In this document: positions 49,739-57,854 of the stretch, one piece after another
Layout of the letters: each line of letters begins with the position of its first letter
How positions within the stretch are numbered: position 1 is the stretch's first letter
Source of the DNA: a virus
DNA length: 64,000 nt
Virus record (IMG/VR): IMGVR_UViG_3300042387_002391
Reading direction: 5' to 3' (one strand)
The notes under the pieces: model-generated
The model's input: the letters and a program-made list of their open reading frames with translations, nothing else
What the model was told of the DNA's origin: nothing
Database searches by the model: none
Program-made: the position numbers and the translations under genes

Positions 49739-50100
49739 AATTTGTAAGCCTTGACCTTCTTTGATTTTTTAGAAAGTTCAACAACCTGCGTGACATAAAG
49801 CAAAACTTTTTCTCCTTTCGGAGTTAGCATAATTCTGTCATCCGAAGCAATCCAAATCAGATCATAAACTTCGAGCATGTACATAAAATCTCCGGCAAGG
49901 TCGCAAGTAATATAATCAACAAGATAACAATCCTCATTTACAATACTTTTTAAAGTATCATAGAGCTCTTGATAGGAAAGAGCTTGAAGAATTTGTTCTG
50001 CAGAGTACACAAAGGTAATTAGTTCACATTCCAAACATTTCAAAAAGATCTGTCTGAACTTCTTTTCCAATTTGCGGTAAAGACCATCCAATTGCTTCAT
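49735..50100 (-). CDS. hypothetical protein
   Basis: C-terminal winged-helix-like LTPKGEKVL; start uncertain. Confidence 0.55.
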   Translation of the reverse strand: MKQLDGLYRKLEKKFRQIFLKCLECELITFVYSAEQILQALSYQELYDTLKSIVNEDCYLVDYITCDLAGDFMYMLEVYDLIWIASDDRIMLTPKGEKVLLYVTQVVELSKKSKKVKAYKL

Positions 50101-51637
50101 ATAAGCGCTCAGTTGGTTGCGTGACTAATTTTGCAAACATCCTATCCCAATCTGGCTTCAGACCAAATTCTAAAGGAAGTGTCGAAACGTATGTAATTGC
50201 GTCCAAACCGTATTTGTTCTTTGTGCAATATAACTTCTTAACTTTCTGTCCAGTCTGAATTGCTTCAAATTTATCATCAATTTTAAACTCTTTAATAAGA
50301 ATATTATAAGCAATTGCTCCTTTGACATGAGAAGGAGTTTTATTTGCAAATTTGTAGAGCGATGATCCTTCTGCATATTTGTCGAGATTGTTAATAGAAG
50401 TTCTGGCAGCAACATCATTAGGATCAAGATTCAAAAATTCATTATAACCTTCTCTATAAACTTCGTTGGTTTGCTTTATATTTTGAGTAAGAAGTGCTGT
50501 TTGAATAATTTTTTCAATAAACTTCTTAACTTTCTTCGGAGTTGTTGAGCGAACAAGTTCAATTCCTGTATATTTAAATTTATCTACAGCAACGCCCTCT
50601 TCATCAAGAACGTGAAGAACATATCGCTTCTTTTGCAAGAATATTCCAACATCCGAAATAACTTCTCTCTTGAAAACATATCGAGGATCAACTGAAAATA
50701 ATTCTTTCCTAGCCCACTCGAGAATTTCTGTATTGACTACTTTATCGAGTTCATCAACAATTTCATGAACCTTTTCATTAACCTTTCCATCAATTGTAAG
50801 AGGAATGTTTTGCTTTTGGAGAATTGGATCAATTGTTATATAAACAGAATTATGAACAAGAATGTCATTAGCAAAGAAAGTATGCTCTGTGTCATCTGCC
50901 ATTTCAATATCATAAACATATTCATCTTCAAACTCTCCAATGTGTTCTACTGAAGTAATATCAACAATTAAAGGGGTTCTGTTTACATTTACAACAAATT
51001 TATCAGTATCTTTGCAAACTTGCTTTGGAGGCAATCTCAACAAAGTATTGTCTCTCCAAACCATGCAACCATGATCTTCTGTCATTATTACTTCGTTGCC
51101 ATTTGCACAAACTTTATATTTGCCTTTTGAAACTTTGTGACGAATGAGCTTTTTTATTTTTCCAAAAACAATTTCGTGATTTTCGGAATTATAAGTCAAA
51201 CATTGCAAATCGATGTCAGAAACATCCAAAATTTCATGACCAAATTGTGAGAGGTCTGTTGGACTGTTTTTGAATTTTTCATACAAGTCACCAATGCAAA
51301 TATCCCCTTTATTAGTGGTTATAACAGTGCTAAAAATTTCACTGTCCGTATCGCCATATTTGGTAACTGACTCAGAAATGCCGTATTTTTCTCTTACAAA
51401 ATTGTCAAGAATGTTTCCTCCAGCCTTGGCAACGCTTTGGCCAGTTGCTGTAATAGATGAGGCATGATCCAAGTCCATCAAAGACGAGTGTTTGTTAGAC
51501 GTGACACCATAGGCGCTGTTCAAGAGCACCTTCAAAGCGGCATTAAGATTGTTGTAGTGGGTTATACTCCATACCATTTTCTTCTCTAATTCCTTCAACT
51601 CTTCTAGAGTCATTTCTTGATAGGATTTTTTTGTCAT
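50024..51637 (-). CDS. family B DNA polymerase fragment 3 (fingers C-helix, palm, thumb; with mini-intein)
   Basis: KVLLNSAYG, YGDTD|..|SVY, KKRY, GIELVRS, C-terminal clamp-binding DLFEMF. Confidence 0.95.
   Translation of the reverse strand: MTKKSYQEMTLEELKELEKKMVWSITHYNNLNAALKVLLNSAYGVTSNKHSSLMDLDHASSITATGQSVAKAGGNILDNFVREKYGISESVTKYGDTDSEIFSTVITTNKGDICIGDLYEKFKNSPTDLSQFGHEILDVSDIDLQCLTYNSENHEIVFGKIKKLIRHKVSKGKYKVCANGNEVIMTEDHGCMVWRDNTLLRLPPKQVCKDTDKFVVNVNRTPLIVDITSVEHIGEFEDEYVYDIEMADDTEHTFFANDILVHNSVYITIDPILQKQNIPLTIDGKVNEKVHEIVDELDKVVNTEILEWARKELFSVDPRYVFKREVISDVGIFLQKKRYVLHVLDEEGVAVDKFKYTGIELVRSTTPKKVKKFIEKIIQTALLTQNIKQTNEVYREGYNEFLNLDPNDVAARTSINNLDKYAEGSSLYKFANKTPSHVKGAIAYNILIKEFKIDDKFEAIQTGQKVKKLYCTKNKYGLDAITYVSTLPLEFGLKPDWDRMFAKLVTQPTERLYEAIGWSLPQIGKEVQTDLFEMFGM
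50849..51343 (-). mobile_element. contiguous Ser1/Ser+1 mini-intein (165 aa) at YGDTD|S
   Basis: SEIFST...LIRHKV...TEDH...VYDIEM...FFANDILVHN|S. Confidence 0.93.
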
Positions 51638-52850
51638 ATGGTTCAAAATATTTTAAGTCTTCGTCTGTTAAATTTAACACGATGTCGATTACTCGTTCGT
51701 CTTCTATCTTAGCATTCTTTTTCTTATTTTCTACTGAAGTTAACATTTGTAGGTTTTTAAAGTGTGACATTTTTTGGGGATCAATGTCGTGCTCAAAGCC
51801 GTAAATTTTAGGTAGAACATGGTCTATGTGAAACTTCTTTAATCCTCTCGGAAGATTGTCGGGATTAATAACATTTCTGTGGAGTCTATATGATATGGTC
51901 GTATAATACTCTACTAAAAATTTGTATTCTGCCCACTTTTCAGGATCTCTATGTTTTCTATTGCTTAGTCCTGTATATGTCCATCTACATCTTTCGCTAC
52001 AAAAATCACGATAACCTGTATTAAGCGTTTTAAACTCACAAGGCTTATTGCAAAAAAGACATTCGTCAGGTTTATCTTTTTCATACATGAAAAGATGATA
52101 CGATTCAGGTTTTGTTTTTGCTGGATATTCTTTTACAATTTTCGAATGAATTGAAGGAAAGTAATGTTCTACGAAATACGTCATCGAACAATAATCGATC
52201 TTATTGAGCTCTGTAATAAATTCGTGCAAGTTTTTCTCATCGTGTTTGTTAGCAAATTCTGCAAGTGCTTGATATGAGTATCCCACCGACAATGTTTGAA
52301 ACTGCAAGTGTTTGCCGTTGCAAATTATTGGTTCTATATCATGATAATAACAGTAAAGAGCTTCCCTGTTATGTTTGCATTTTTTTCTAATTTCTTTGAG
52401 TTTTTTGTATTCGTCAGGAAAGGCTAGTTTAGCAACATCGATCAATTGTACTCCTGAAAGTTTATTGTCAGCGCATACCTTTATTATGTCTTTCAGCGAA
52501 CTTTTGTTGTTGGTATTTTCGATGAGAACATGCACATTAACGTTTTTCCAAACATACTTGGTGGAAACTATAATGTCGTTATAAATCAACGGTGTATAAT
52601 TTTTTTCTGTAAAAGAAATTTTTTTAAACTCGCCGCTTACGGTTTTATAGTACACTGTCTTTCCTTCAACCTTTTTCCAAAGATCCGGATAATCTGATTT
52701 AATCTTAGCAAAACTATCTTTGGTGTAGTTTGCGTTAATAAATTTTCTTGGAGTAGAAAGAGTTTTTGTAATCAACTCTACCAACTCATTATTTTCTTCA
52801 GAACTTCCGTAAGTAGGGTTTTCGCTATTGTTACTATTATCAATTATCAT
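51543..52850 (-). CDS. free-standing HNH homing endonuclease
   Basis: C-terminal HIDHVLP...NLQML..ENKKKN; CLFC..FCSERC. Confidence 0.82.
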   Translation of the reverse strand: MIIDNSNNSENPTYGSSEENNELVELITKTLSTPRKFINANYTKDSFAKIKSDYPDLWKKVEGKTVYYKTVSGEFKKISFTEKNYTPLIYNDIIVSTKYVWKNVNVHVLIENTNNKSSLKDIIKVCADNKLSGVQLIDVAKLAFPDEYKKLKEIRKKCKHNREALYCYYHDIEPIICNGKHLQFQTLSVGYSYQALAEFANKHDEKNLHEFITELNKIDYCSMTYFVEHYFPSIHSKIVKEYPAKTKPESYHLFMYEKDKPDECLFCNKPCEFKTLNTGYRDFCSERCRWTYTGLSNRKHRDPEKWAEYKFLVEYYTTISYRLHRNVINPDNLPRGLKKFHIDHVLPKIYGFEHDIDPQKMSHFKNLQMLTSVENKKKNAKIEDERVIDIVLNLTDEDLKYFEPYDKKILSRNDSRRVEGIREENGMEYNPLQQS

Positions 52851-52866
52851 GATAATAGTATTTATG
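52832..52866 (-). promoter_or_regulatory. late-type promoter overlapping an 11-bp hairpin that buries the HNH start codon
   Basis: CATAAATA (52866-52859); TACTATTATCA/TGATAATAGTA inverted repeat. Confidence 0.7.
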
Positions 52867-52874
52867 CTATAAAT

Positions 52875-54167
52875 TTATTTTTCTTTGGATTTAATAGCCT
52901 TTTTGATTTTGGCGAGCTCTTGCTTAAAATAATTCATCTGATCCTTACTTTCTACACGCTCTTTGTAGATCTGATCGATTAGATTTGGAAGAATACCTTT
53001 GGTTTTTTGACTATACAATACTCCAGCCTTAGTGAGTGCTACATTTTCTTTGACTAGGAATTCTTTAAATTTTTGTCCCGAAAGCGTATGAATCTTGCCA
53101 TTCAAAAGCCTTATCGAAATTTCTCCTTTTGGATCATTAGCAATATTCCCGAAATCTCCTTGAACAACTTTCCCTAATTTTGTTTCTGGAGAAATGTTTA
53201 ATGTAATAATAGTATTGGGATATAGTGAATTAACGTCAAAACTCACAATCGACTTTTGAATACCTCTTTCTGGATCTCTTACAAACCCTCCTTCAAAAGC
53301 TTCTCTGTCAAGATTGTTCGGAAAGGTGGGAATAACCATTCCTTGTTTATGAGCCTGAATAGCAACTGCTCCCGTAACAACTGCAACTTTTCCGAGGGCT
53401 GCTTCAAAATTTGTGCATCCCTTATAAGCAATCATTCTAGCAATTTCCAAGAATTTGAGCTTTTCTTCAAGCTTTACGAGCAAATGCACATCTTGAATAT
53501 TGTAATCTACAAACAATTTCCAGTCTGTATGAGCCAATTCACCTAAGCTAACTGCATTATAAGCAATCTTTCCTTCTCCGAGTTCAAGTTCAGCAATATA
53601 ATTTAAACTAAACGATTCTTTCTCTCCAGGCGAAAAGGCTTTATAAAGATCCATGTAATCAATCAAAGACACTCCGCTAATCGACCATACAGTAATTTCT
53701 TTACCCATGTCAGTAAAGACTTTCCTTCCTCTCACATTTCCAACTGGCGACAACTGTTTTACGAAGTCGTCGCCAAAAATTCTCGTAAATCGATTAATGA
53801 TATAAGGAAAGTCAAACCCAGAAGAATTCCAACCTGAAGCAATATCTGGATAATCGCTCTTCCAAAAATCTACAAATTGCAAGATCAAATCTTGCTCATC
53901 CTTACATCTGTGATAAATGCAATCAGGAAGAGTTGGAGTATATTGCTCCTTAAGTCCCCAAGTATGAGTTGCTTTGGTTAAGGTATCATAAATTGTTATC
54001 AAATTGATAGGAACGGCTGCTCTCTCAGGAACTGGGAACTGTCCTCTCTTTGCGTAACAAGTTTGAGAGTAGCTAACCCATTTGTGCTGTTCTTCATCAT
54101 ACACCTCATATTCTTCTTTATCAGAAAGTGTTAAAAAATTTTCTATGCTAATTTGTTGTTCTGTCAT
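52875..54167 (-). CDS. family B DNA polymerase fragment 2 (exonuclease II/III, motif A, fingers N-helix)
   Basis: FPVP, GWNSSGFD, YNIQD, EGGFV, FDVNSLYP. Confidence 0.95.
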   Translation of the reverse strand: MTEQQISIENFLTLSDKEEYEVYDEEQHKWVSYSQTCYAKRGQFPVPERAAVPINLITIYDTLTKATHTWGLKEQYTPTLPDCIYHRCKDEQDLILQFVDFWKSDYPDIASGWNSSGFDFPYIINRFTRIFGDDFVKQLSPVGNVRGRKVFTDMGKEITVWSISGVSLIDYMDLYKAFSPGEKESFSLNYIAELELGEGKIAYNAVSLGELAHTDWKLFVDYNIQDVHLLVKLEEKLKFLEIARMIAYKGCTNFEAALGKVAVVTGAVAIQAHKQGMVIPTFPNNLDREAFEGGFVRDPERGIQKSIVSFDVNSLYPNTIITLNISPETKLGKVVQGDFGNIANDPKGEISIRLLNGKIHTLSGQKFKEFLVKENVALTKAGVLYSQKTKGILPNLIDQIYKERVESKDQMNYFKQELAKIKKAIKSKEK

Positions 54168-54948
54168 ATGAATATCTGTTGCGATAAGTAATCATTCTGC
54201 TTCTAGCTTTAGGATTAATGGTCAATAAATATGCCTCAAATTCTTTCTCACTCATTTTTCCTAAACGTTCTGTTAGAATCTGTGGCTGATTTGTCTTTTT
54301 TCCTTTTGATATATTAGCTCCACGTTTCTTATGGTCAACGTTTTTGTTGTGAAGAGAATTTAAGCATCTTTGAATTTTTTGTTCAGGTGTCAACGTTTGA
54401 ATAAAGGTTTTAAGAGTGTTGCTGACATTTTTATATTTTTCTTCTTTCGTAATTTTTGGCTTTTGTACTTTAGGAGCATAATTATGTCCAAACAAATACT
54501 TGCTTTGTTTTTGCTTGACAGGGTTTCCGCACCCACAACAACACAGCGGCAGAGGATCCTTGGGAGGTCTTGGTTTAGATAACATTGCTTCTCTTATTTT
54601 TTGCCTTACTTCAGGACACTTGGTTGGGTGATTTTTAGCAAATTCGATGCGCGCAATCTCAAATTGTTTGCTGTTAAAAAATCGCTGGTGGTGATTCTTT
54701 GAACACATTTTATTGAATGCTGAGGCCAGCTTGCTTCTCACTTGTATCGAGTCGTTTTGATGAATTTTGCATAACAATCTGTGTATTAGAAAGTGTTCTC
54801 TTGCCGTAAGTTTGACTAAATTGTCGCGATCATTTGTTCCGCCTAAACATTTTGGTAAAATGTGATGTTTTTCGTAGTATTGGCCACTTATTGTTTGTCT
54901 GGATTTAGATCTTTCAATAATCGAGTCGTGCACATTTTTATAATTCAT
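54148..54948 (-). CDS. free-standing HNH homing endonuclease (Mob-like, NUMOD-like C-terminus)
   Basis: YYEKHHILPKCLGG..NLVKLTAREHFLIHRLL. Confidence 0.9.
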   Translation of the reverse strand: MNYKNVHDSIIERSKSRQTISGQYYEKHHILPKCLGGTNDRDNLVKLTAREHFLIHRLLCKIHQNDSIQVRSKLASAFNKMCSKNHHQRFFNSKQFEIARIEFAKNHPTKCPEVRQKIREAMLSKPRPPKDPLPLCCCGCGNPVKQKQSKYLFGHNYAPKVQKPKITKEEKYKNVSNTLKTFIQTLTPEQKIQRCLNSLHNKNVDHKKRGANISKGKKTNQPQILTERLGKMSEKEFEAYLLTINPKARSRMITYRNRYSYDRTTN

Positions 54949-54951
54949 ATG

Positions 54952-54974
54952 TGCGTTTACTTAATCTAAACGCA
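54952..54974 (-). promoter_or_regulatory. hairpin containing late-type motif just upstream of HNH ATG
   Basis: TGCGTTTA-GATTAAG-TAAACGCA, ending 3 nt before ATG. Confidence 0.65.
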
Positions 54975-54994
54975 ACATCTACCTCGATATCAAA

Positions 54995-55396
54995 TCATGT
55001 TTGCCGTTTTCTAATCTTGATTTTGTGTGATTTTGGATATGATGAGGTATCAACTTCAATATCCAACAAAAATACTTTCAAAGGAAATTGCGAAAAGGTT
55101 GGATCTCCATTCTGCTCCTTATACATATCAATAAGGAATTGCTGTTCTGGTCCAAGATTATGAAAGATTCTTTTGTTAGCTGTGTTGTCTACAAACTTCT
55201 TGCGCTCTAAACTATTCTTAAAAGTCTTCTTCATCAAAGAAGTCTTGAAAATCGATACAGCATCTTCTGCACCATCCTTCTCAAGATACAAAAACGGACG
55301 AAAAGGAATCTCTGTATCAATTCTCTGACCATCTTCTGTCCAAGTTCTCAAGAAGACCGATTCATTAAAAGGATTGTAGGAAGCAGCGCGATACAT
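54995..55396 (-). CDS. family B DNA polymerase fragment 1 (N-terminal domain + ExoI)
   Basis: MYR..W..DG.R...PFRPFLY; FLLDIEV, then 16 aa tail. Confidence 0.9.
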   Translation of the reverse strand: MYRAASYNPFNESVFLRTWTEDGQRIDTEIPFRPFLYLEKDGAEDAVSIFKTSLMKKTFKNSLERKKFVDNTANKRIFHNLGPEQQFLIDMYKEQNGDPTFSQFPLKVFLLDIEVDTSSYPKSHKIKIRKRQT

Positions 55397-55427: not shown

Positions 55428-57854
55428 TCAAACTAAAAATTTACGATCCTTTGAACCAAATGGCGTGAAATAAACTTCATGATATTTCATCAAATTCTTT
55501 TCATCATCAAGCCAGAATTTTTCCGCATATGCTCGAGCCTTTTTACAATGTTCTGCGTAAATGCTTTGGTTTTTGAGAACGGTTTTTAGACAGTCAATGA
55601 ACTCTGCACCAGTCTTATATTTTAAAGAAGCATCTTTGTAGGTAACCATATCAGGACATACGCAAGGAAGACCAAGGGCACCCGATTCGATTAATTTAAT
55701 ATTGCTATTGTGCGAAACTATTCCATTAGCAATATAAGACTTTGTAGCTGGAACGCAAATATCATACACAATTTCTTCATCTTCTAGATGCTCGATAGAA
55801 ACAACTTCGTCTTTCCATTGAAATTCTTTGTATGCGTTGCTGTGAGACTTACTGCAAATATTGCGCAAGCGTTGTTTTTTAAATTCGGAAACAAAACCAA
55901 TTTCTTTCTCGTAAATATCGCAACCCTCTCTGGTAATTCTAATATTGTAATGATGACCAGTATAAACTTTTTCGGTTTCCTTCGATTTACCGAATGGTCT
56001 GGTGTACATAGAAATTTCTTTCTTAATTTTGCTATGAATACCAAAGCCAAGTAGTAAAATCTGTATGTCTTTAGCAAATTTTTCTGACTTAGTGCAGAAT
56101 AAAATATCAGTACCATTTCTTCCGACTGTAGCATCGGCTTCAAACAAACCTTTGATAAACTGAGCTACTACCGATTTTCTTGATTGCCAAATAAAGTTCG
56201 GAACAAACAAGTTCTTGCTTTGTTTTCTTGTTGTTAGTCCCATCCATTCAAACATCCTTCTGAGCAATCTAGAGTTACAAGAAATGGTTTGGTGGTTAGT
56301 AAAGTCGTATGTAGATTGATAGCGCTTTGGCTCAATACCTAACTGACTAATTAAATATTTCACATCTTCTATGACTTCTTGGTCTCTGTTGCAGCAAACG
56401 ATCGAAATGCAATTACCAGCTGAAAAATGACCGTCTCCTAAAATGTAGCCAAACAGTCGAGCAAACTCTTCGTTAAATCTCACCAAAGGAGAAATGGCCT
56501 TGTCTTGAATGTGAATAAAGTCTTCGATAGTTATTTTTTTAGTATTCCAAAACGGAAGCTGAATTTCTTGATATGGTAAATTTTCTTCCAATTGATACTT
56601 AGAAAGATTCACGAAATCGCCAATTTTTATGTCTTTCATTTCAGTCCAATCACTGTCTTTTGAAATTCTGTGAGTGATGGTCCCTTTAATCTCATAGCCC
56701 ATTTTTGTGACCACCTTAATAATTTTTTCCGTCTTCGGAGAAATATAGTAAGCATTGCTCTCTTCAAATTTATTGTCCTGAGAAAGCGTCTTAAATTTTA
56801 CATTGTTTTTGTTATTTTGATCAAGCTTACTAACTGAGTTACAGTAGTCTTCAATTTTAATTAATCCCTTTCCTTTAACTTGAATCATCGTGTCGCCCGT
56901 AACGCATTTGCTGCGATTGAAATGATTATCTTGAAGAGCTGCAAAGGTTACCTGTGCTCCAGATTTTGCCATTGCTTCTGGAAACTCGACAAGAGGAGCC
57001 CACGGAAAGAATCTCATTTCTCCGCTATCAATAAATGGCTTGAGAGGAAGTGGATAAGATCCGTAAAAGTGCCATTGAAAATCTTTGCGTGTTTTAATAA
57101 TGTTCGGAACAACAAATTCAAAGTCATCCTTTTGATTAACTCTATTCATTACATCAACATGCGTTCCGGATGCAAAAATAGCAACGATGGGTTTCTTCTT
57201 ATTCTTATCAAACTTCTTAATGAGATCTCCAAGATTATAATAGCGGTCAAACCACCATTTCATCAGATAGTTTGGAACAGTTGTAACATTCTTGTTACCT
57301 GTCTTATTAATCATATAGTCTCTAAAATAATCACAAGTAACCGTGACTTCGTCCATCATAGAAATAATTTCTAAAATGCTGTTACGGATTTCGTCAGAAA
57401 CAAATGCATCTCTATTCCTATTATACATTGGAATGTCTTCATGGAATACGACGTCATCGACTTCATAAATCAGCTTCAGAGGCTTTTGTGTTGAAATTTG
57501 TTTGAGAATTTTAACAAAGTCTCTTTGATGAGGAGTTGCTTGCCTTTGAAGTTTAACAGCTTCGACTGTCTGATAGAATTTTGGATCAAGCACCATTGCT
57601 GTTGATTCCATGATAACTGCTTTCTGATACAAGTTGAGTAAAAGATTTGGAGCCATGCAGCGGTAATATCCACATCCGCCATAATCAGCAAGATAGTTTA
57701 GAGCACGCTTCAAACCTTCTCCGGGAACTTCTGGTGCTGGAACTGGTCTTTGTGCAGGAGAACGGTTAACATATGATGGAGAAGGAATGCCAAATGGAAG
57801 GCCGTGTGGTGCTCCAATCATATTTTGGATGCCTAATTGTACAGGTTGTGACAT
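55428..57854 (-). CDS. glycosyltransferase (GT-B-like) containing a LAGLIDADG intein
   Basis: DYGGCGYYR, YEVDD, FNRSK|..|SNIKLIE. Confidence 0.85.
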   Translation of the reverse strand: MSQPVQLGIQNMIGAPHGLPFGIPSPSYVNRSPAQRPVPAPEVPGEGLKRALNYLADYGGCGYYRCMAPNLLLNLYQKAVIMESTAMVLDPKFYQTVEAVKLQRQATPHQRDFVKILKQISTQKPLKLIYEVDDVVFHEDIPMYNRNRDAFVSDEIRNSILEIISMMDEVTVTCDYFRDYMINKTGNKNVTTVPNYLMKWWFDRYYNLGDLIKKFDKNKKKPIVAIFASGTHVDVMNRVNQKDDFEFVVPNIIKTRKDFQWHFYGSYPLPLKPFIDSGEMRFFPWAPLVEFPEAMAKSGAQVTFAALQDNHFNRSKCVTGDTMIQVKGKGLIKIEDYCNSVSKLDQNNKNNVKFKTLSQDNKFEESNAYYISPKTEKIIKVVTKMGYEIKGTITHRISKDSDWTEMKDIKIGDFVNLSKYQLEENLPYQEIQLPFWNTKKITIEDFIHIQDKAISPLVRFNEEFARLFGYILGDGHFSAGNCISIVCCNRDQEVIEDVKYLISQLGIEPKRYQSTYDFTNHQTISCNSRLLRRMFEWMGLTTRKQSKNLFVPNFIWQSRKSVVAQFIKGLFEADATVGRNGTDILFCTKSEKFAKDIQILLLGFGIHSKIKKEISMYTRPFGKSKETEKVYTGHHYNIRITREGCDIYEKEIGFVSEFKKQRLRNICSKSHSNAYKEFQWKDEVVSIEHLEDEEIVYDICVPATKSYIANGIVSHNSNIKLIESGALGLPCVCPDMVTYKDASLKYKTGAEFIDCLKTVLKNQSIYAEHCKKARAYAEKFWLDDEKNLMKYHEVYFTPFGSKDRKFLV
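55707..56906 (-). mobile_element. full-length intein (400 aa) with LAGLIDADG endonuclease
   Basis: CVTGDT, GTITH, LFGYILGDG, FIKGLFEADA, VYDICV..YIANGIVSHN|S. Confidence 0.95.

What the first reader, a model, noticed from the sequence alone, without database searches (positions are those of the whole stretch)
50024..55396. DNA polymerase B in three pieces, each break occupied by a free-standing HNH gene, without complete split inteins
Seen: fragment 1 stops just after ExoI (LDIEV). Fragment 2 holds ExoII/III and motif A and ends in a basic helix (QELAKIKKAIKSKEK). Fragment 3 starts with an acidic helix (EMTLEELKELEKK) leading into motif B. Neither downstream fragment begins with an HN|C/S/T intein end, and there is no room for a group I core. 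Known: fingers-split gp43A/B in some T4-like phages, and mobE-split nrdA in Aeh1 that assembles non-covalently. Inference: a heterotrimeric polymerase in which even the proofreading active site is shared between two chains.
Basis: partly seen in the sequence, partly recalled or inferred. Interest (0 to 1): 0.82.

Follow-up and report, generated by a model that had tools for sequence, protein, structure and literature searches.

The report
Three-piece phage DNA polymerase gene

Summary
The gp43-type polB of this freshwater T4-like phage lies on the minus strand as three ORFs of 133, 430 and 537 aa, separated by two endonuclease genes.

About 16 close relatives (59-88% aa identity) carry one uninterrupted ~850-aa gene. 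Lake metagenomes hold alleles both with and without the inserts.

Break 1, just after ExoI, is a recurrent MobE-like HNH cassette. It supplies a conserved tail (..HKIKIRK..) and head (..ITLGEF..YEVWDE..W..Y..SCY..). These are the two halves of a ~58-aa insertion domain that is contiguous in many unsplit metagenomic polBs. In one lineage the endonuclease gene has been deleted but the split remains.

Break 2, at the fingertip, is a second recurrent cassette with conserved basic and acidic helices. Both pairs of ends evolve under protein-level selection while synonymous sites are saturated. That argues against introns, and no intein blocks are present.

Non-covalent assembly into a heterotrimer is the best reading, but it is inferred, not shown. 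The kind is known (Aeh1 nrdA/mobE; fingertip-split gp43A/B). The ExoI site, the split-domain clasp and the three-piece form are new variants. This scan had already noted the ExoI-split cassette on other DNA (e1-5401010).

The parts
54995..55396 (-). polB piece 1 (F1, 133 aa): N-terminal domain plus the ExoI strand (D112, E114), followed by a 16-aa tail.
   Evidence: ORF. Collinear with residues 1-117 of intact relatives. D112/I113/E114 are invariant in 16 sequences.
54998..55045 (-). F1 tail (SSYPKSHKIKIRKRQT), the first strand of the split insertion domain.
   Evidence: The tail motif I-K-x-R-K is invariant in six split lineages. It matches positions 22-34 of an HMM built from unsplit polBs. 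It lies in the predicted F1-F2 interface.
54040..55046 (.). Cassette 1 (1007 nt): F1 tail, recoded DIEVD relic, hairpin and promoter-like motif, HNH1, and the F2 head. An insert-free allele has 15 nt here.
   Evidence: DNA homology to L003 stops at 55047 and resumes at 54038. A 2016 metagenome contig joins 54039 to 55047 with 15 nt between, which reads DIEVDTTVESGFPVPE.
54977..54994 (-). In-frame FDIEVD copy directly after the F1 stop codon. It differs from the true ExoI codons only at third positions. Unexplained relic.
   Evidence: Read from the sequence. A partly similar ATCGAGG stretch sits at the same place in L038.
54952..54974 (-). Hairpin (TGCGTTTA / TAAACGCA) with a TAAGTAAA late-promoter-like motif, just upstream of the HNH1 start.
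   Evidence: RNAfold. Similar AGATAA[AG]TAAA motifs precede several other genes of the window.
54148..54948 (-). HNH1, a MobE-like free-standing HNH homing endonuclease (266 aa).
   Evidence: phrog_655 'homing endonuclease' at 7.8e-43. Pfam HNH at 0.0053, below the cut-off. tblastn hits to MobE and homing endonucleases of T4-like phages. Homologous endonuclease genes occupy the same polB site in L038 and L040.
52875..54167 (-). polB piece 2 (F2, 430 aa): 43-aa head, the rest of the exonuclease domain (ExoII, ExoIII), palm motif A and the first finger helix with a basic tail.
   Evidence: Pfam DNA_pol_B_exo1 at 5e-15 and DNA_pol_B at 1e-14. Alignments.
54039..54167 (-). F2 head (43 aa), the remaining strands and helix of the split insertion domain.
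   Evidence: Conserved in L037, L038 and L040. On its own it matches positions 37-76 of the HMM of unsplit polBs at E 2e-14. About 32 representative proteins start with it.
51514..52934 (.). Cassette 2 (1421 nt): F2 tail, HNH2 with its promoter-like motif and hairpin, and the F3 head through motif B. An insert-free allele has 100 nt here.
   Evidence: A 2016 metagenome contig joins 51513 to 52935 with 100 nt between. DNA homology boundaries.
52878..52937 (-). F2 tail (MNYFKQELAKIKKAIKSKEK), a basic extension of the first finger helix.
   Evidence: Conserved in L042, L044 and L046. pN 0.08-0.26 against pS 0.53-0.90.
52832..52866 (-). CATAAATAC late-promoter-like motif and a hairpin that encloses the HNH2 start codon.
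   Evidence: RNAfold gives -11.9 kcal/mol. The same design is seen in L046 and L042, with changes on both arms that keep the pairing.
51543..52850 (-). HNH2 (435 aa), a free-standing endonuclease-like gene. It is HNH-like by motif (H341, D343, H344, N366, N375) and has a four-Cys cluster.
   Evidence: Seven homologues at 52-80% identity; in the three whose contexts were fetched (P0014, P0019, P0020) the gene sits at the polB fingertip. Pfam, fold and profile tests were inconclusive.
50024..51637 (-). polB piece 3 precursor (F3, 537 aa from the ATG at 51637): acidic head, second finger helix with motif B, palm motif C interrupted by an intein, and thumb.
   Evidence: ORF. Conserved start MT.KSY..MTL.EL. 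Alignments.
51515..51637 (-). F3 head (MTKKSYQEMTLEELKELEKK... up to KVLLNS), brought in with cassette 2.
   Evidence: Conserved in L042, L044 and L046. pN 0.09-0.34 against pS 0.55-0.91. Lies inside the 1421-nt replacement.
50849..51343 (-). 165-aa mini-intein in motif C (YGDTD|SEIF...ILVHN|SVY).
   Evidence: Ser1, TxxH, terminal HN and +1 Ser are all present. Pfam Intein_splicing at 1.1e-8. Solved PolB inteins 9hth at 4e-14 and 8cpn at 6e-8. The L049 variant shows 17 synonymous against 2 amino-acid changes. Most relatives lack it; L018 has it.

Best explanation
This is the phage's only recognisable replicative polymerase gene (the gp43 orthologue) in the window. It has been invaded by three selfish elements and is still functional.

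Two free-standing homing-endonuclease cassettes cut it into three separately translated ORFs. Cassette 1 carries a MobE-like HNH gene and sits after ExoI. Cassette 2 carries an HNH-like gene and sits at the fingertip. A cis-splicing mini-intein sits in motif C of the third ORF and removes itself from the protein.

The three chains assemble non-covalently. F1 inserts its ExoI strand into the exonuclease sheet of F2. The pair is locked by a split ~58-aa insertion domain: the F1 tail is its first strand, and the F2 head supplies the next strand, a helix and two more strands. The break falls in the hairpin turn between them. F2 and F3 rebuild the fingers as an antiparallel helix pair, lengthened by a basic tail and an acidic head that came with the cassette.

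The endonuclease genes appear to be held back by late-promoter-like motifs and start-site hairpins, as for T4 mobE and I-TevI.

Shown here: gene anatomy, insert boundaries, recurrence and protein-level conservation of the ends, and the contiguous form of the clasp domain. Inferred: separate translation, assembly, activity, intein splicing and endonuclease regulation.
For: 1. Relatives at 59-88% aa identity carry one ~850-aa ORF. Insert-free alleles (15 nt and 100 nt in place of 1007 and 1421 nt) co-occur with insert-bearing ones in a 2016 lake metagenome at similar contig depth.

2. The ExoI-split cassette recurs in lineages with only 38-74% F1 identity. All have the tail motif, a homologous MobE-like gene and the head. 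In L039 the endonuclease gene is decayed. In L037 it is deleted down to a 100-nt relic, yet polB stays split with intact ends.

3. For cassette 1, tail and head have pN 0.26-0.42, like the polB core, with saturated pS of 0.6-1.0; for example Arg is encoded by AGA or by CGT. For cassette 2, the ends have pN 0.08-0.34 against pS 0.53-0.91.

4. A profile search of 1.84 billion representatives gave two groups among the best 150. About 32 proteins start with the head; six of these are 408-442 aa and end at the fingertip, so other lineages also have three pieces. About 23 unsplit polBs of 784-1067 aa carry tail plus head contiguously after ExoI.

5. An HMM built only from the unsplit forms matches F1 at positions 2-33 (2e-8) and F2 at positions 37-112 (2e-29). 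Insert-less polBs skip positions 19-76.

6. An AF2 model of an unsplit form (pLDDT 90.7) shows a compact strand-strand-helix-strand-strand domain, with the break point in the first hairpin turn.

7. Complex prediction for F2 with F1 gave ipSAE 0.85 against a best control of 0.01. This mark was reached by 58 of 80 solved complexes and by 2 of 110 mismatched pairs. The three runs agree in at least 96% of contacts, and the partner's pLDDT is at least 87. The interface includes F1 residues 105-131 and F2 residues 1-9, 19-25 and 36-45. The pass may stem from likeness to solved single-chain gp43 structures.

8. The fingertip cassette recurs in L042-L047 with a conserved tail and head.

9. D112 and E114 in F1 and the ExoII, ExoIII and motif A residues in F2 are invariant in the alignments. 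Motif B (KVLLNS) and motif C are present in F3.

10. The identical locus appears in independent assemblies, and a 97% variant appears in a run from eight years earlier.

11. Published precedents: 43A/43B of Aeromonas phage 25 co-purify and are active (PMC2988022); a fingertip-split Pfu polymerase is fully active (PMC3061061); the cassette-derived tails of Aeh1 NrdA-a/b are essential (PMC3045599).
Against: There is no RNA or protein data for this phage, so separate translation, assembly, polymerase and exonuclease activity and intein splicing are all untested.

The whole genome is not held. A second polB outside the 64-kb window cannot be excluded, although none lies in the window.

The Rfam negative for introns is weak. 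The same search missed the T4 td intron.

The F2-F3 contact was not modelled. No contiguous counterpart of the fingertip tail and head was found in the small set searched.

HNH2 could not be placed in the HNH family by any profile or fold test.

The recoded DIEVD copy after the F1 stop is unexplained.
Confidence: 0.8

Rival explanations
1. The two inserts are group I introns that carry endonuclease ORFs. RNA splicing restores one continuous polB mRNA, as in SPO1, Bastille, phage 25 g43B and JSE.
For: The insert sizes (1007 and 1421 nt) are typical of phage introns with endonuclease ORFs. About 100-130 nt flank HNH1 on each side. Group I introns are known in phage polymerase genes, including gp43 of phage 25 and JSE (PMC2993671). 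The Rfam search missed the T4 td intron in my control, so its silence here is weak.
Against: No Intron_gpI match at E<=10 around the locus, at gathering score in the whole window, or at E<=1 in L037, L038 and L040. That includes the compact endonuclease-less L037 spacer.

The would-be intron flanks are open, in frame with the exons, and conserved as protein while their synonymous sites are saturated. In other polBs they are a contiguous, translated domain that folds with high confidence.

HNH1 belongs to the free-standing MobE group.
Confidence: 0.04
2. The locus is a recently disrupted, decaying polymerase gene. The phage is defective or relies on another polymerase.
For: Close relatives have an intact gene, so the inserts are evolutionarily recent in this lineage. 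The whole genome could not be searched.
Against: All three pieces are open and keep every catalytic residue. The same split forms persist in lineages diverged to 38-57% identity and after loss of the endonuclease gene. The same phage is seen identical or 97-99% identical in several runs from 2016 to 2024. No other polB lies in the window, and the locus sits in the usual gp43-uvsX-gp41 order.
Confidence: 0.06
3. The tails and heads are split-intein halves, or their degenerate remains, and the pieces are joined by protein trans-splicing, as in 'fractured genes'.
For: The gene order N-piece, free-standing endonuclease gene, C-piece is that of fractured genes (PMC2677866). Relatives L003 and L005 really do have a split intein with a free-standing ORF at motif C. 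Another first-reader note suggested an intein-derived clasp (e1-5765570).
Against: The tail is 16 aa and the head 43 aa, too short for a Hint fold. There is no conserved Cys/Ser at the tail start and no terminal HN plus nucleophile at the head end. No Pfam intein hit on four heads even at E<=10. hhalign of the insertion domain against the window's inteins gives probability 0.2-0.9%. The module is an ordinary internal domain in unsplit polBs.
Confidence: 0.01

Closest known systems
nrdA-a / mobE / nrdA-b of Aeromonas phage Aeh1 (Friedrich et al. 2007; Crona et al. 2011, PMC3045599)
   Same: A MobE-type free-standing HNH endonuclease gene sits inside an essential replication-related gene and splits an active-site region between two chains. 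Short unique tails at the break are needed for function. There is no intron or intein.
   Different: The host gene here is polB, not nrdA. The ends are not novel peptides created by the insertion: they are two halves of a domain that is contiguous in other polBs. The cassette recurs in many lineages and survives loss of the endonuclease gene.
Fingertip-split gp43A/gp43B of T4-like phages 133, 44RR, 31, 25 and 65 (Petrov et al. 2006, 2010, as described in PMC3061061 and PMC2988022)
   Same: Break 2 lies between the two finger helices of a T4-type polB. Two cistrons are separated by mobile or untranslated DNA. For phage 25 the pieces co-purify and are active.
   Different: The intervening gene is HNH-like rather than the GIY-YIG seg gene or an untranslated spacer. 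It carries conserved charge-complementary helix extensions. It is combined here with a second split and an intein.
Other naturally or artificially split family-B polymerases: Methanobacterium thermoautotrophicum PolB (palm), RM378 (between N and palm, predicted), split Pfu (PMC3061061), and Nanoarchaeum PolB (split intein, PMC2677866)
   Same: They show that family-B polymerases tolerate being made as separate chains.
   Different: None of those listed is split directly after ExoI within the exonuclease domain, and none of those listed is in three pieces.
PolB motif-C inteins (solved PolB inteins 9hth and 8cpn). The pol-c site of archaeal and giant-virus polBs is recalled from memory and was not checked here.
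   Same: A mini-intein inserted at YGDTD|S with the canonical splicing residues.
   Different: Here it sits in a fragment of an already split gene. In relatives L003 and L005 the same intein is itself split by a free-standing ORF.

Membership tests
Gene in pieces made by a free-standing homing-endonuclease cassette (Aeh1 nrdA/mobE type) | The host gene is contiguous in close relatives, and the insert has sharp boundaries. | tested here: met
   About 16 intact ~850-aa polBs. Insert-free alleles with 15 nt and 100 nt at the two sites.
Gene in pieces made by a free-standing homing-endonuclease cassette (Aeh1 nrdA/mobE type) | The intervening ORF is a homing endonuclease with its own expression signals, not fused to the host frames. 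| tested here: met
   HNH1: phrog_655 at 7.8e-43 and MobE-like tblastn hits. Both genes are preceded by promoter-like motifs and hairpins. For HNH2 the endonuclease assignment rests on a motif only.
Gene in pieces made by a free-standing homing-endonuclease cassette (Aeh1 nrdA/mobE type) | The peptide ends at the break are conserved as protein. | tested here: met
Gene in pieces made by a free-standing homing-endonuclease cassette (Aeh1 nrdA/mobE type) | The fragments assemble into an active enzyme. | not testable with these tools
   Only a prediction for F1 with F2: ipSAE 0.85 against a best control of 0.01; mark reached by 58 of 80 solved complexes and 2 of 110 mismatched pairs; runs agree in at least 96% of contacts; partner pLDDT at least 87.
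Group I intron | A conserved catalytic core recognisable by the covariance model. | tested here: not met
   No RF00028 match. Sensitivity is limited: the T4 nrdB intron was found and the td intron missed.
Group I intron | Sequence flanking the endonuclease ORF is non-coding RNA structure, not in-frame conserved protein. | tested here: not met
   The flanks are in frame, have pN well below a saturated pS, and are a translated domain in unsplit polBs.
Split intein / fractured gene | N-intein blocks A and B at the end of the N piece; blocks F and G with terminal HN and a +1 nucleophile at the start of the C piece. | tested here: not met
Fingertip-split gp43A/B | The break lies between the two finger helices, N-terminal to motif B. 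| tested here: met
   Alignment with intact relatives. Location of the known splits is as described in PMC3061061.
Class 1 mini-intein (Hint) | N-terminal Ser/Cys, block B TxxH, C-terminal HN, +1 Ser/Cys/Thr, and Hint-domain homology. | tested here: met
   Residues present. Pfam score 35.5 bits against a cut-off of 35.8, E 1.1e-8. PolB inteins in the PDB at 4e-14. Purifying selection.
HNH endonuclease superfamily (HNH2 only) | A profile or fold match to the HNH nuclease core. | tested here: inconclusive
   No Pfam hit. Weak phrog endonuclease VII hit at 0.008. The AF2 model of the motif region has pLDDT below 50, and Foldseek found nothing. hhalign aligns the motif with HNH1 at probability 2.7%. 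Invariant H, D, H, N, N and four Cys.

The most novel reading that the evidence does not exclude
The ExoI cassette may be a portable 'split-domain clasp'. In this reading, a homing endonuclease that originally landed in a hairpin turn of a small accessory domain of some polBs now carries both halves of that domain with it. It can then invade polB alleles that never had the domain, next to the proofreading active site, and leave a working enzyme made of separate chains. Together with the fingertip cassette, this would make splicing-free protein complementation a general third way, beside introns and inteins, for selfish DNA to live inside essential genes. Three-piece replicative polymerases would then be a recurrent natural architecture.
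Probability: 0.5. Interest if true: 0.75.

Novelty: new variant of a known kind. Interest (0 to 1): 0.62.

Why it matters
Replicative polymerases are usually treated as single catalytic chains. Here the proofreading site, the fingers and the palm would be built from three polypeptides.

The comparative data give a concrete, testable account of how a selfish endonuclease cassette can cut an essential gene at an active-site region without killing its host. It would do so by carrying matching halves of a small domain (break 1) or complementary helices (break 2).

This extends the single well-studied case, Aeh1 NrdA, to a widespread family of uncultured phages. It also offers natural split sites and clasp peptides for engineering split family-B polymerases. 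Finally, it warns annotators that short 'hypothetical' ORFs next to polB can be true polymerase subunits.

Tried and rejected
- **Rfam search for introns.** Nothing was found. My T4 control showed that the method finds the nrdB intron but misses td, so this counts for little.
- **RNA evidence.** No RNA holder was listed among the public runs, so splicing could not be tested directly.
- **Own genome.** It is not held, so a second polB elsewhere could not be searched for.
- **IMG/VR scans with HNH1 and HNH2.** No relatives were found, because the method needs shared 8-mers.
- **Megablast of the locus against cultured phages.** No match. tblastn of the L038 F1 protein (P0012) against cultured phages also gave no match, so no isolate with this cassette is known to me.
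- **Word-based protein search with the 45-aa head.** No candidates; the query is too short.
- **Partial duplication idea.** I first thought the F2 head was a duplicate of the region before ExoI. No DNA-level support appeared, and the idea is superseded by the insertion-domain result.
- **Intein-derived clasp.** No profile similarity.
- **HNH2 fold.** The model was poor in the motif region, and there was no structural match.
- **Contiguous counterpart of the fingertip tail and head.** None among about 150 fetched proteins, which is a small set.
- **Shine-Dalgarno check of the F2 and F3 starts.** Uninformative, because genes of this window do not use SD motifs: 6 of 49 genes against a 12% background.
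- **Contig of P0001.** Its DNA could not be fetched.
- **Literature.** Searches found no description of an ExoI-site split.

Full report
**What is there.** On the minus strand of 50024-55396 there are five consecutive ORFs: F1 (54995-55396, 133 aa), HNH1 (54148-54948, 266 aa), F2 (52875-54167, 430 aa), HNH2 (51543-52850, 435 aa) and F3 (50024-51646).
- Pfam finds the family-B exonuclease and polymerase domains in F2 and the polymerase domain in F3. It also finds an intein signal in F3.
- The nearest cultured phages are only ~35% identical: Methylophilales phage Melnitz and T4-like cyanophages. There is no nucleotide match in cultured phages.
- The neighbours are those of a T4-like replication module: a gp46-like SbcC homologue, a glycosyltransferase-like gene, polB, uvsX and a gp41-like helicase.
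- Aligned with intact polBs, F1 ends just after ExoI (D112-I-E114). F2 carries ExoII, ExoIII and motif A and ends in the first finger helix. F3 begins in the second finger helix with motif B.
- No other polB homology lies in the window. The whole genome is not held.

**The gene is whole in relatives, and the inserts are polymorphic.** An IMG/VR scan gave 20 loci at 59-88% aa identity. In about 16 of them, F1, F2 and F3 are collinear in one frame as a single ~850-aa ORF, and none has HNH1 or HNH2.

DNA alignment with the closest one places insert 1 between 55047 and 54038, and insert 2 roughly between 52938 and 51512.

Laying public lake-metagenome contigs on the locus gave three results:
- Three 2024 runs hold identical sequence across every junction.
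- A 2016 run from another study holds ~97% identical contigs spanning all of HNH1 and all of HNH2.
- The same 2016 run also holds related contigs that skip the inserts. In one, 1007 nt are replaced by 15 nt, which restores DIEVDTTVESGFPVPE. In the other, 1421 nt are replaced by 100 nt. Contig depths are similar for both kinds.

An independent Logan assembly is 100% identical over 6647 nt, and a JGI contig is 98.9% identical. The arrangement is therefore real, persistent, and polymorphic in the way homing-endonuclease genes usually are.

**Break 1 is a recurrent cassette.** HNH1 matches the PHROG 'homing endonuclease' family 655 (7.8e-43) and the MobE-type genes of T4-like phages.

A search for short F1-like proteins found stand-alone F1 homologues on long contigs at 38-74% identity. 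All of them end in the same tail motif..Y..[HK].IK[IF]RK[KR]...

Their contexts are F1, then a MobE-like gene, then the rest of polB (L038, L040, and the P0001 contig). In L039 the endonuclease gene is frameshifted. In L037 only a 100-nt relic of its 3' end remains, yet polB is still in two ORFs.

The downstream pieces all start with a conserved ~43-aa head, M.E..ITLGEF....[DE]YEV[WY]DE...W..[YF]..S.Y..FP.

Between these lineages synonymous sites are saturated (pS 0.6-1.0). The tail and head change at the amino-acid level no faster than the polymerase core (pN 0.26-0.42 against 0.27-0.50), and conserved Arg and Ile residues use different codons. This is selection on protein, not on RNA.

**What the clasp is.** A profile of the first 130 residues of four head-bearing pieces was searched against 1.84 billion representatives. 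The best 150 hits fall into three groups:
- About 32 proteins begin with the head.
- About 23 uninterrupted polBs of 784-1067 aa contain the head internally at about residue 135-175, preceded by a tail-like Y..H.IKI[KR]K.
- The rest are ordinary polBs that lack both.

An HMM built only from the uninterrupted forms matches F1 at positions 2-33 (2e-8), F2 at positions 37-112 (2e-29), the head alone at positions 37-76 (2e-14) and the tail alone at positions 22-34. Insert-less polBs such as L006 and Melnitz skip positions 19-76.

An AF2 model of one uninterrupted form (P0096 residues 1-400, pLDDT 90.7, closest solved fold RB69/T4 gp43) shows the insert as a compact strand-strand-helix-strand-strand unit. 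The position of the break in the split genes corresponds to the first hairpin turn.

So the tail and head are the two halves of a native accessory domain. The window's lineage, whose nearest relatives lack the domain altogether, most likely received both halves together with the endonuclease gene. That last step is inference.

Complex prediction for F2 with F1 gave ipSAE 0.85 against a best control of 0.01. This mark was reached by 58 of 80 solved complexes and by 2 of 110 mismatched pairs. The three runs agree in at least 96% of contacts, and the partner's pLDDT is at least 87. The interface includes the ExoI strand, the tail (F1 residues 105-131) and the head (F2 residues 1-9, 19-25, 36-45). 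Because single-chain gp43 structures are solved, this pass may reflect likeness rather than binding.

**Break 2 is a second recurrent cassette.** HNH2 has seven homologues at 52-80% identity. In the three whose contexts were fetched (P0014, P0019, P0020; loci L042-L047), the gene lies between a 503-509-aa polB N-piece and a C-piece (364-371 aa where complete).
- The N-pieces end in a conserved basic helix (..QM..K.EL.K.K.AI..K).
- The C-pieces start with MT.KSY..MTL.EL.ELE.K.., which identifies the ATG at 51637 as the likely F3 start.
- These ends also show pN well below pS.
- The 1421-nt replacement includes the second finger helix through motif B (KVLLNS), so part of a foreign polB came in with the cassette.

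The position matches the known fingertip splits of T4-like phages 133, 44RR, 31, 25 and 65. For phage 25 the pieces co-purify and are active, and an engineered fingertip split of Pfu polymerase is fully active (PMC3061061, PMC2988022).

HNH2 itself has invariant H, D, H, N, N residues and four Cys. No Pfam, fold or profile test places it in the HNH family.

**The missed intein.** F3 residues 102-266 (window 50849-51343) interrupt motif C as YGDTD|SEIF...ILVHN|SVY.
- Ser1, TxxH, the terminal HN and the +1 Ser are present.
- The segment matches Pfam Intein_splicing (1.1e-8) and solved PolB inteins (9hth at 4e-14).
- A 98.9% identical variant differs in the intein by 17 synonymous and 2 amino-acid changes.
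- Most relatives lack it, and L018 has it.
- In L003 and L005 it is itself split by a free-standing 354-aa ORF, which is a true fractured gene.

**Regulation (inferred).** Both endonuclease genes are preceded by late-promoter-like motifs: CATAA[AG]TAC for HNH2 and TAAGTAAA for HNH1. Both also have hairpins at or over the start codon, and for HNH2 the pairing is kept through changes on both arms in other lineages. This resembles the published control of T4 I-TevI and Aeh1 mobE; that comparison rests on my own knowledge and on PMC2677866 reference 22.

Genes of this window do not use Shine-Dalgarno motifs, so their absence before F2 and F3 says nothing.

**Rivals.**
- *Group I introns* are the main alternative, because the inserts have the right size. 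The covariance search is negative, but my control showed that it misses T4 td. The decisive argument is that the flanks are translated and conserved as protein, and form a contiguous domain elsewhere.
- *Split inteins* are excluded by length, by the missing blocks and by profile comparison.
- *Decay* is unlikely given intact catalytic residues, persistence across diverged lineages and years, and retention of the split after loss of the endonuclease gene.

**Relation to earlier notes of this scan.**
- The ExoI-split cassette with a conserved clasp was already reported on another genome (e1-5401010). I reached the same reading independently and add the contiguous-domain origin and the three-piece forms.
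- Notes on this window about the recoded DIEVD copy and the promoter-hairpin design agree with what I saw.
- The suggestion that the clasp derives from an intein is not supported.

**Verdict.** This is a new variant of a known kind: a new split site, a split-domain clasp, and a three-piece gene that also carries an intein.

Noticed in passing
window 55428-57854 (-): The 808-aa glycosyltransferase-like gene next to polB carries a ~400-aa intein with a LAGLIDADG endonuclease domain (Pfam LAGLIDADG_3 at 8e-23, Intein_splicing at 6e-14). The orthologue in L037 is 414 aa and lacks it.
   Followed up: partly
L005:7000-9764 and L003:3600-4937: In these close relatives the same motif-C polB intein is split. 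The N piece ends inside the intein, a free-standing ORF follows (354 aa in L005; cut off by the contig end in L003), and the C piece starts with the intein C-terminal blocks (..VYDIEM..ILVHN|SVY). This is a classical fractured gene.
   Followed up: partly
window 54977-54994 (-): An in-frame FDIEVD copy lies directly after the F1 stop codon. It differs from the real ExoI codons only at third positions. L038 has a partly similar stretch at the same place. Its origin and role are unexplained.
   Followed up: partly
proteins P0042, P0049, P0057, P0063, P0067, P0111, P0114: These head-bearing polB fragments of only ~240-267 aa end in a helix with a recurring ..K.E...RRG[LI] motif. The same motif is seen at the end of some ~410-aa fragments. 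This suggests further split sites or another family of tails; four-piece polBs are possible.
   Followed up: no
window, starts of genes of at least 150 aa: There is no enrichment of Shine-Dalgarno motifs (6 of 49 genes against a 12% background). A recurring AGATAA[AG]TAAA motif lies upstream of several genes and is probably the late promoter. The host may be a bacterium that does not use SD motifs.
   Followed up: partly
window 54295 (HNH1): The 2016 variant carries a 9-nt in-frame insertion (TTTTTTCCT on the plus strand) inside HNH1.
   Followed up: no
window 51543-51646: HNH2 of this phage and of L046 has a C-terminal extension that overlaps the start of F3. From the conserved F3 start ATG the overlap is about 95 nt in the window and 89 nt in L046. 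In L042 the overlap is 20 nt, the same as that of the conserved start in L044. The displayed differences of the 2016 variant in this overlap fall mostly on third codon positions of the F3 frame (5 of 8).
   Followed up: partly
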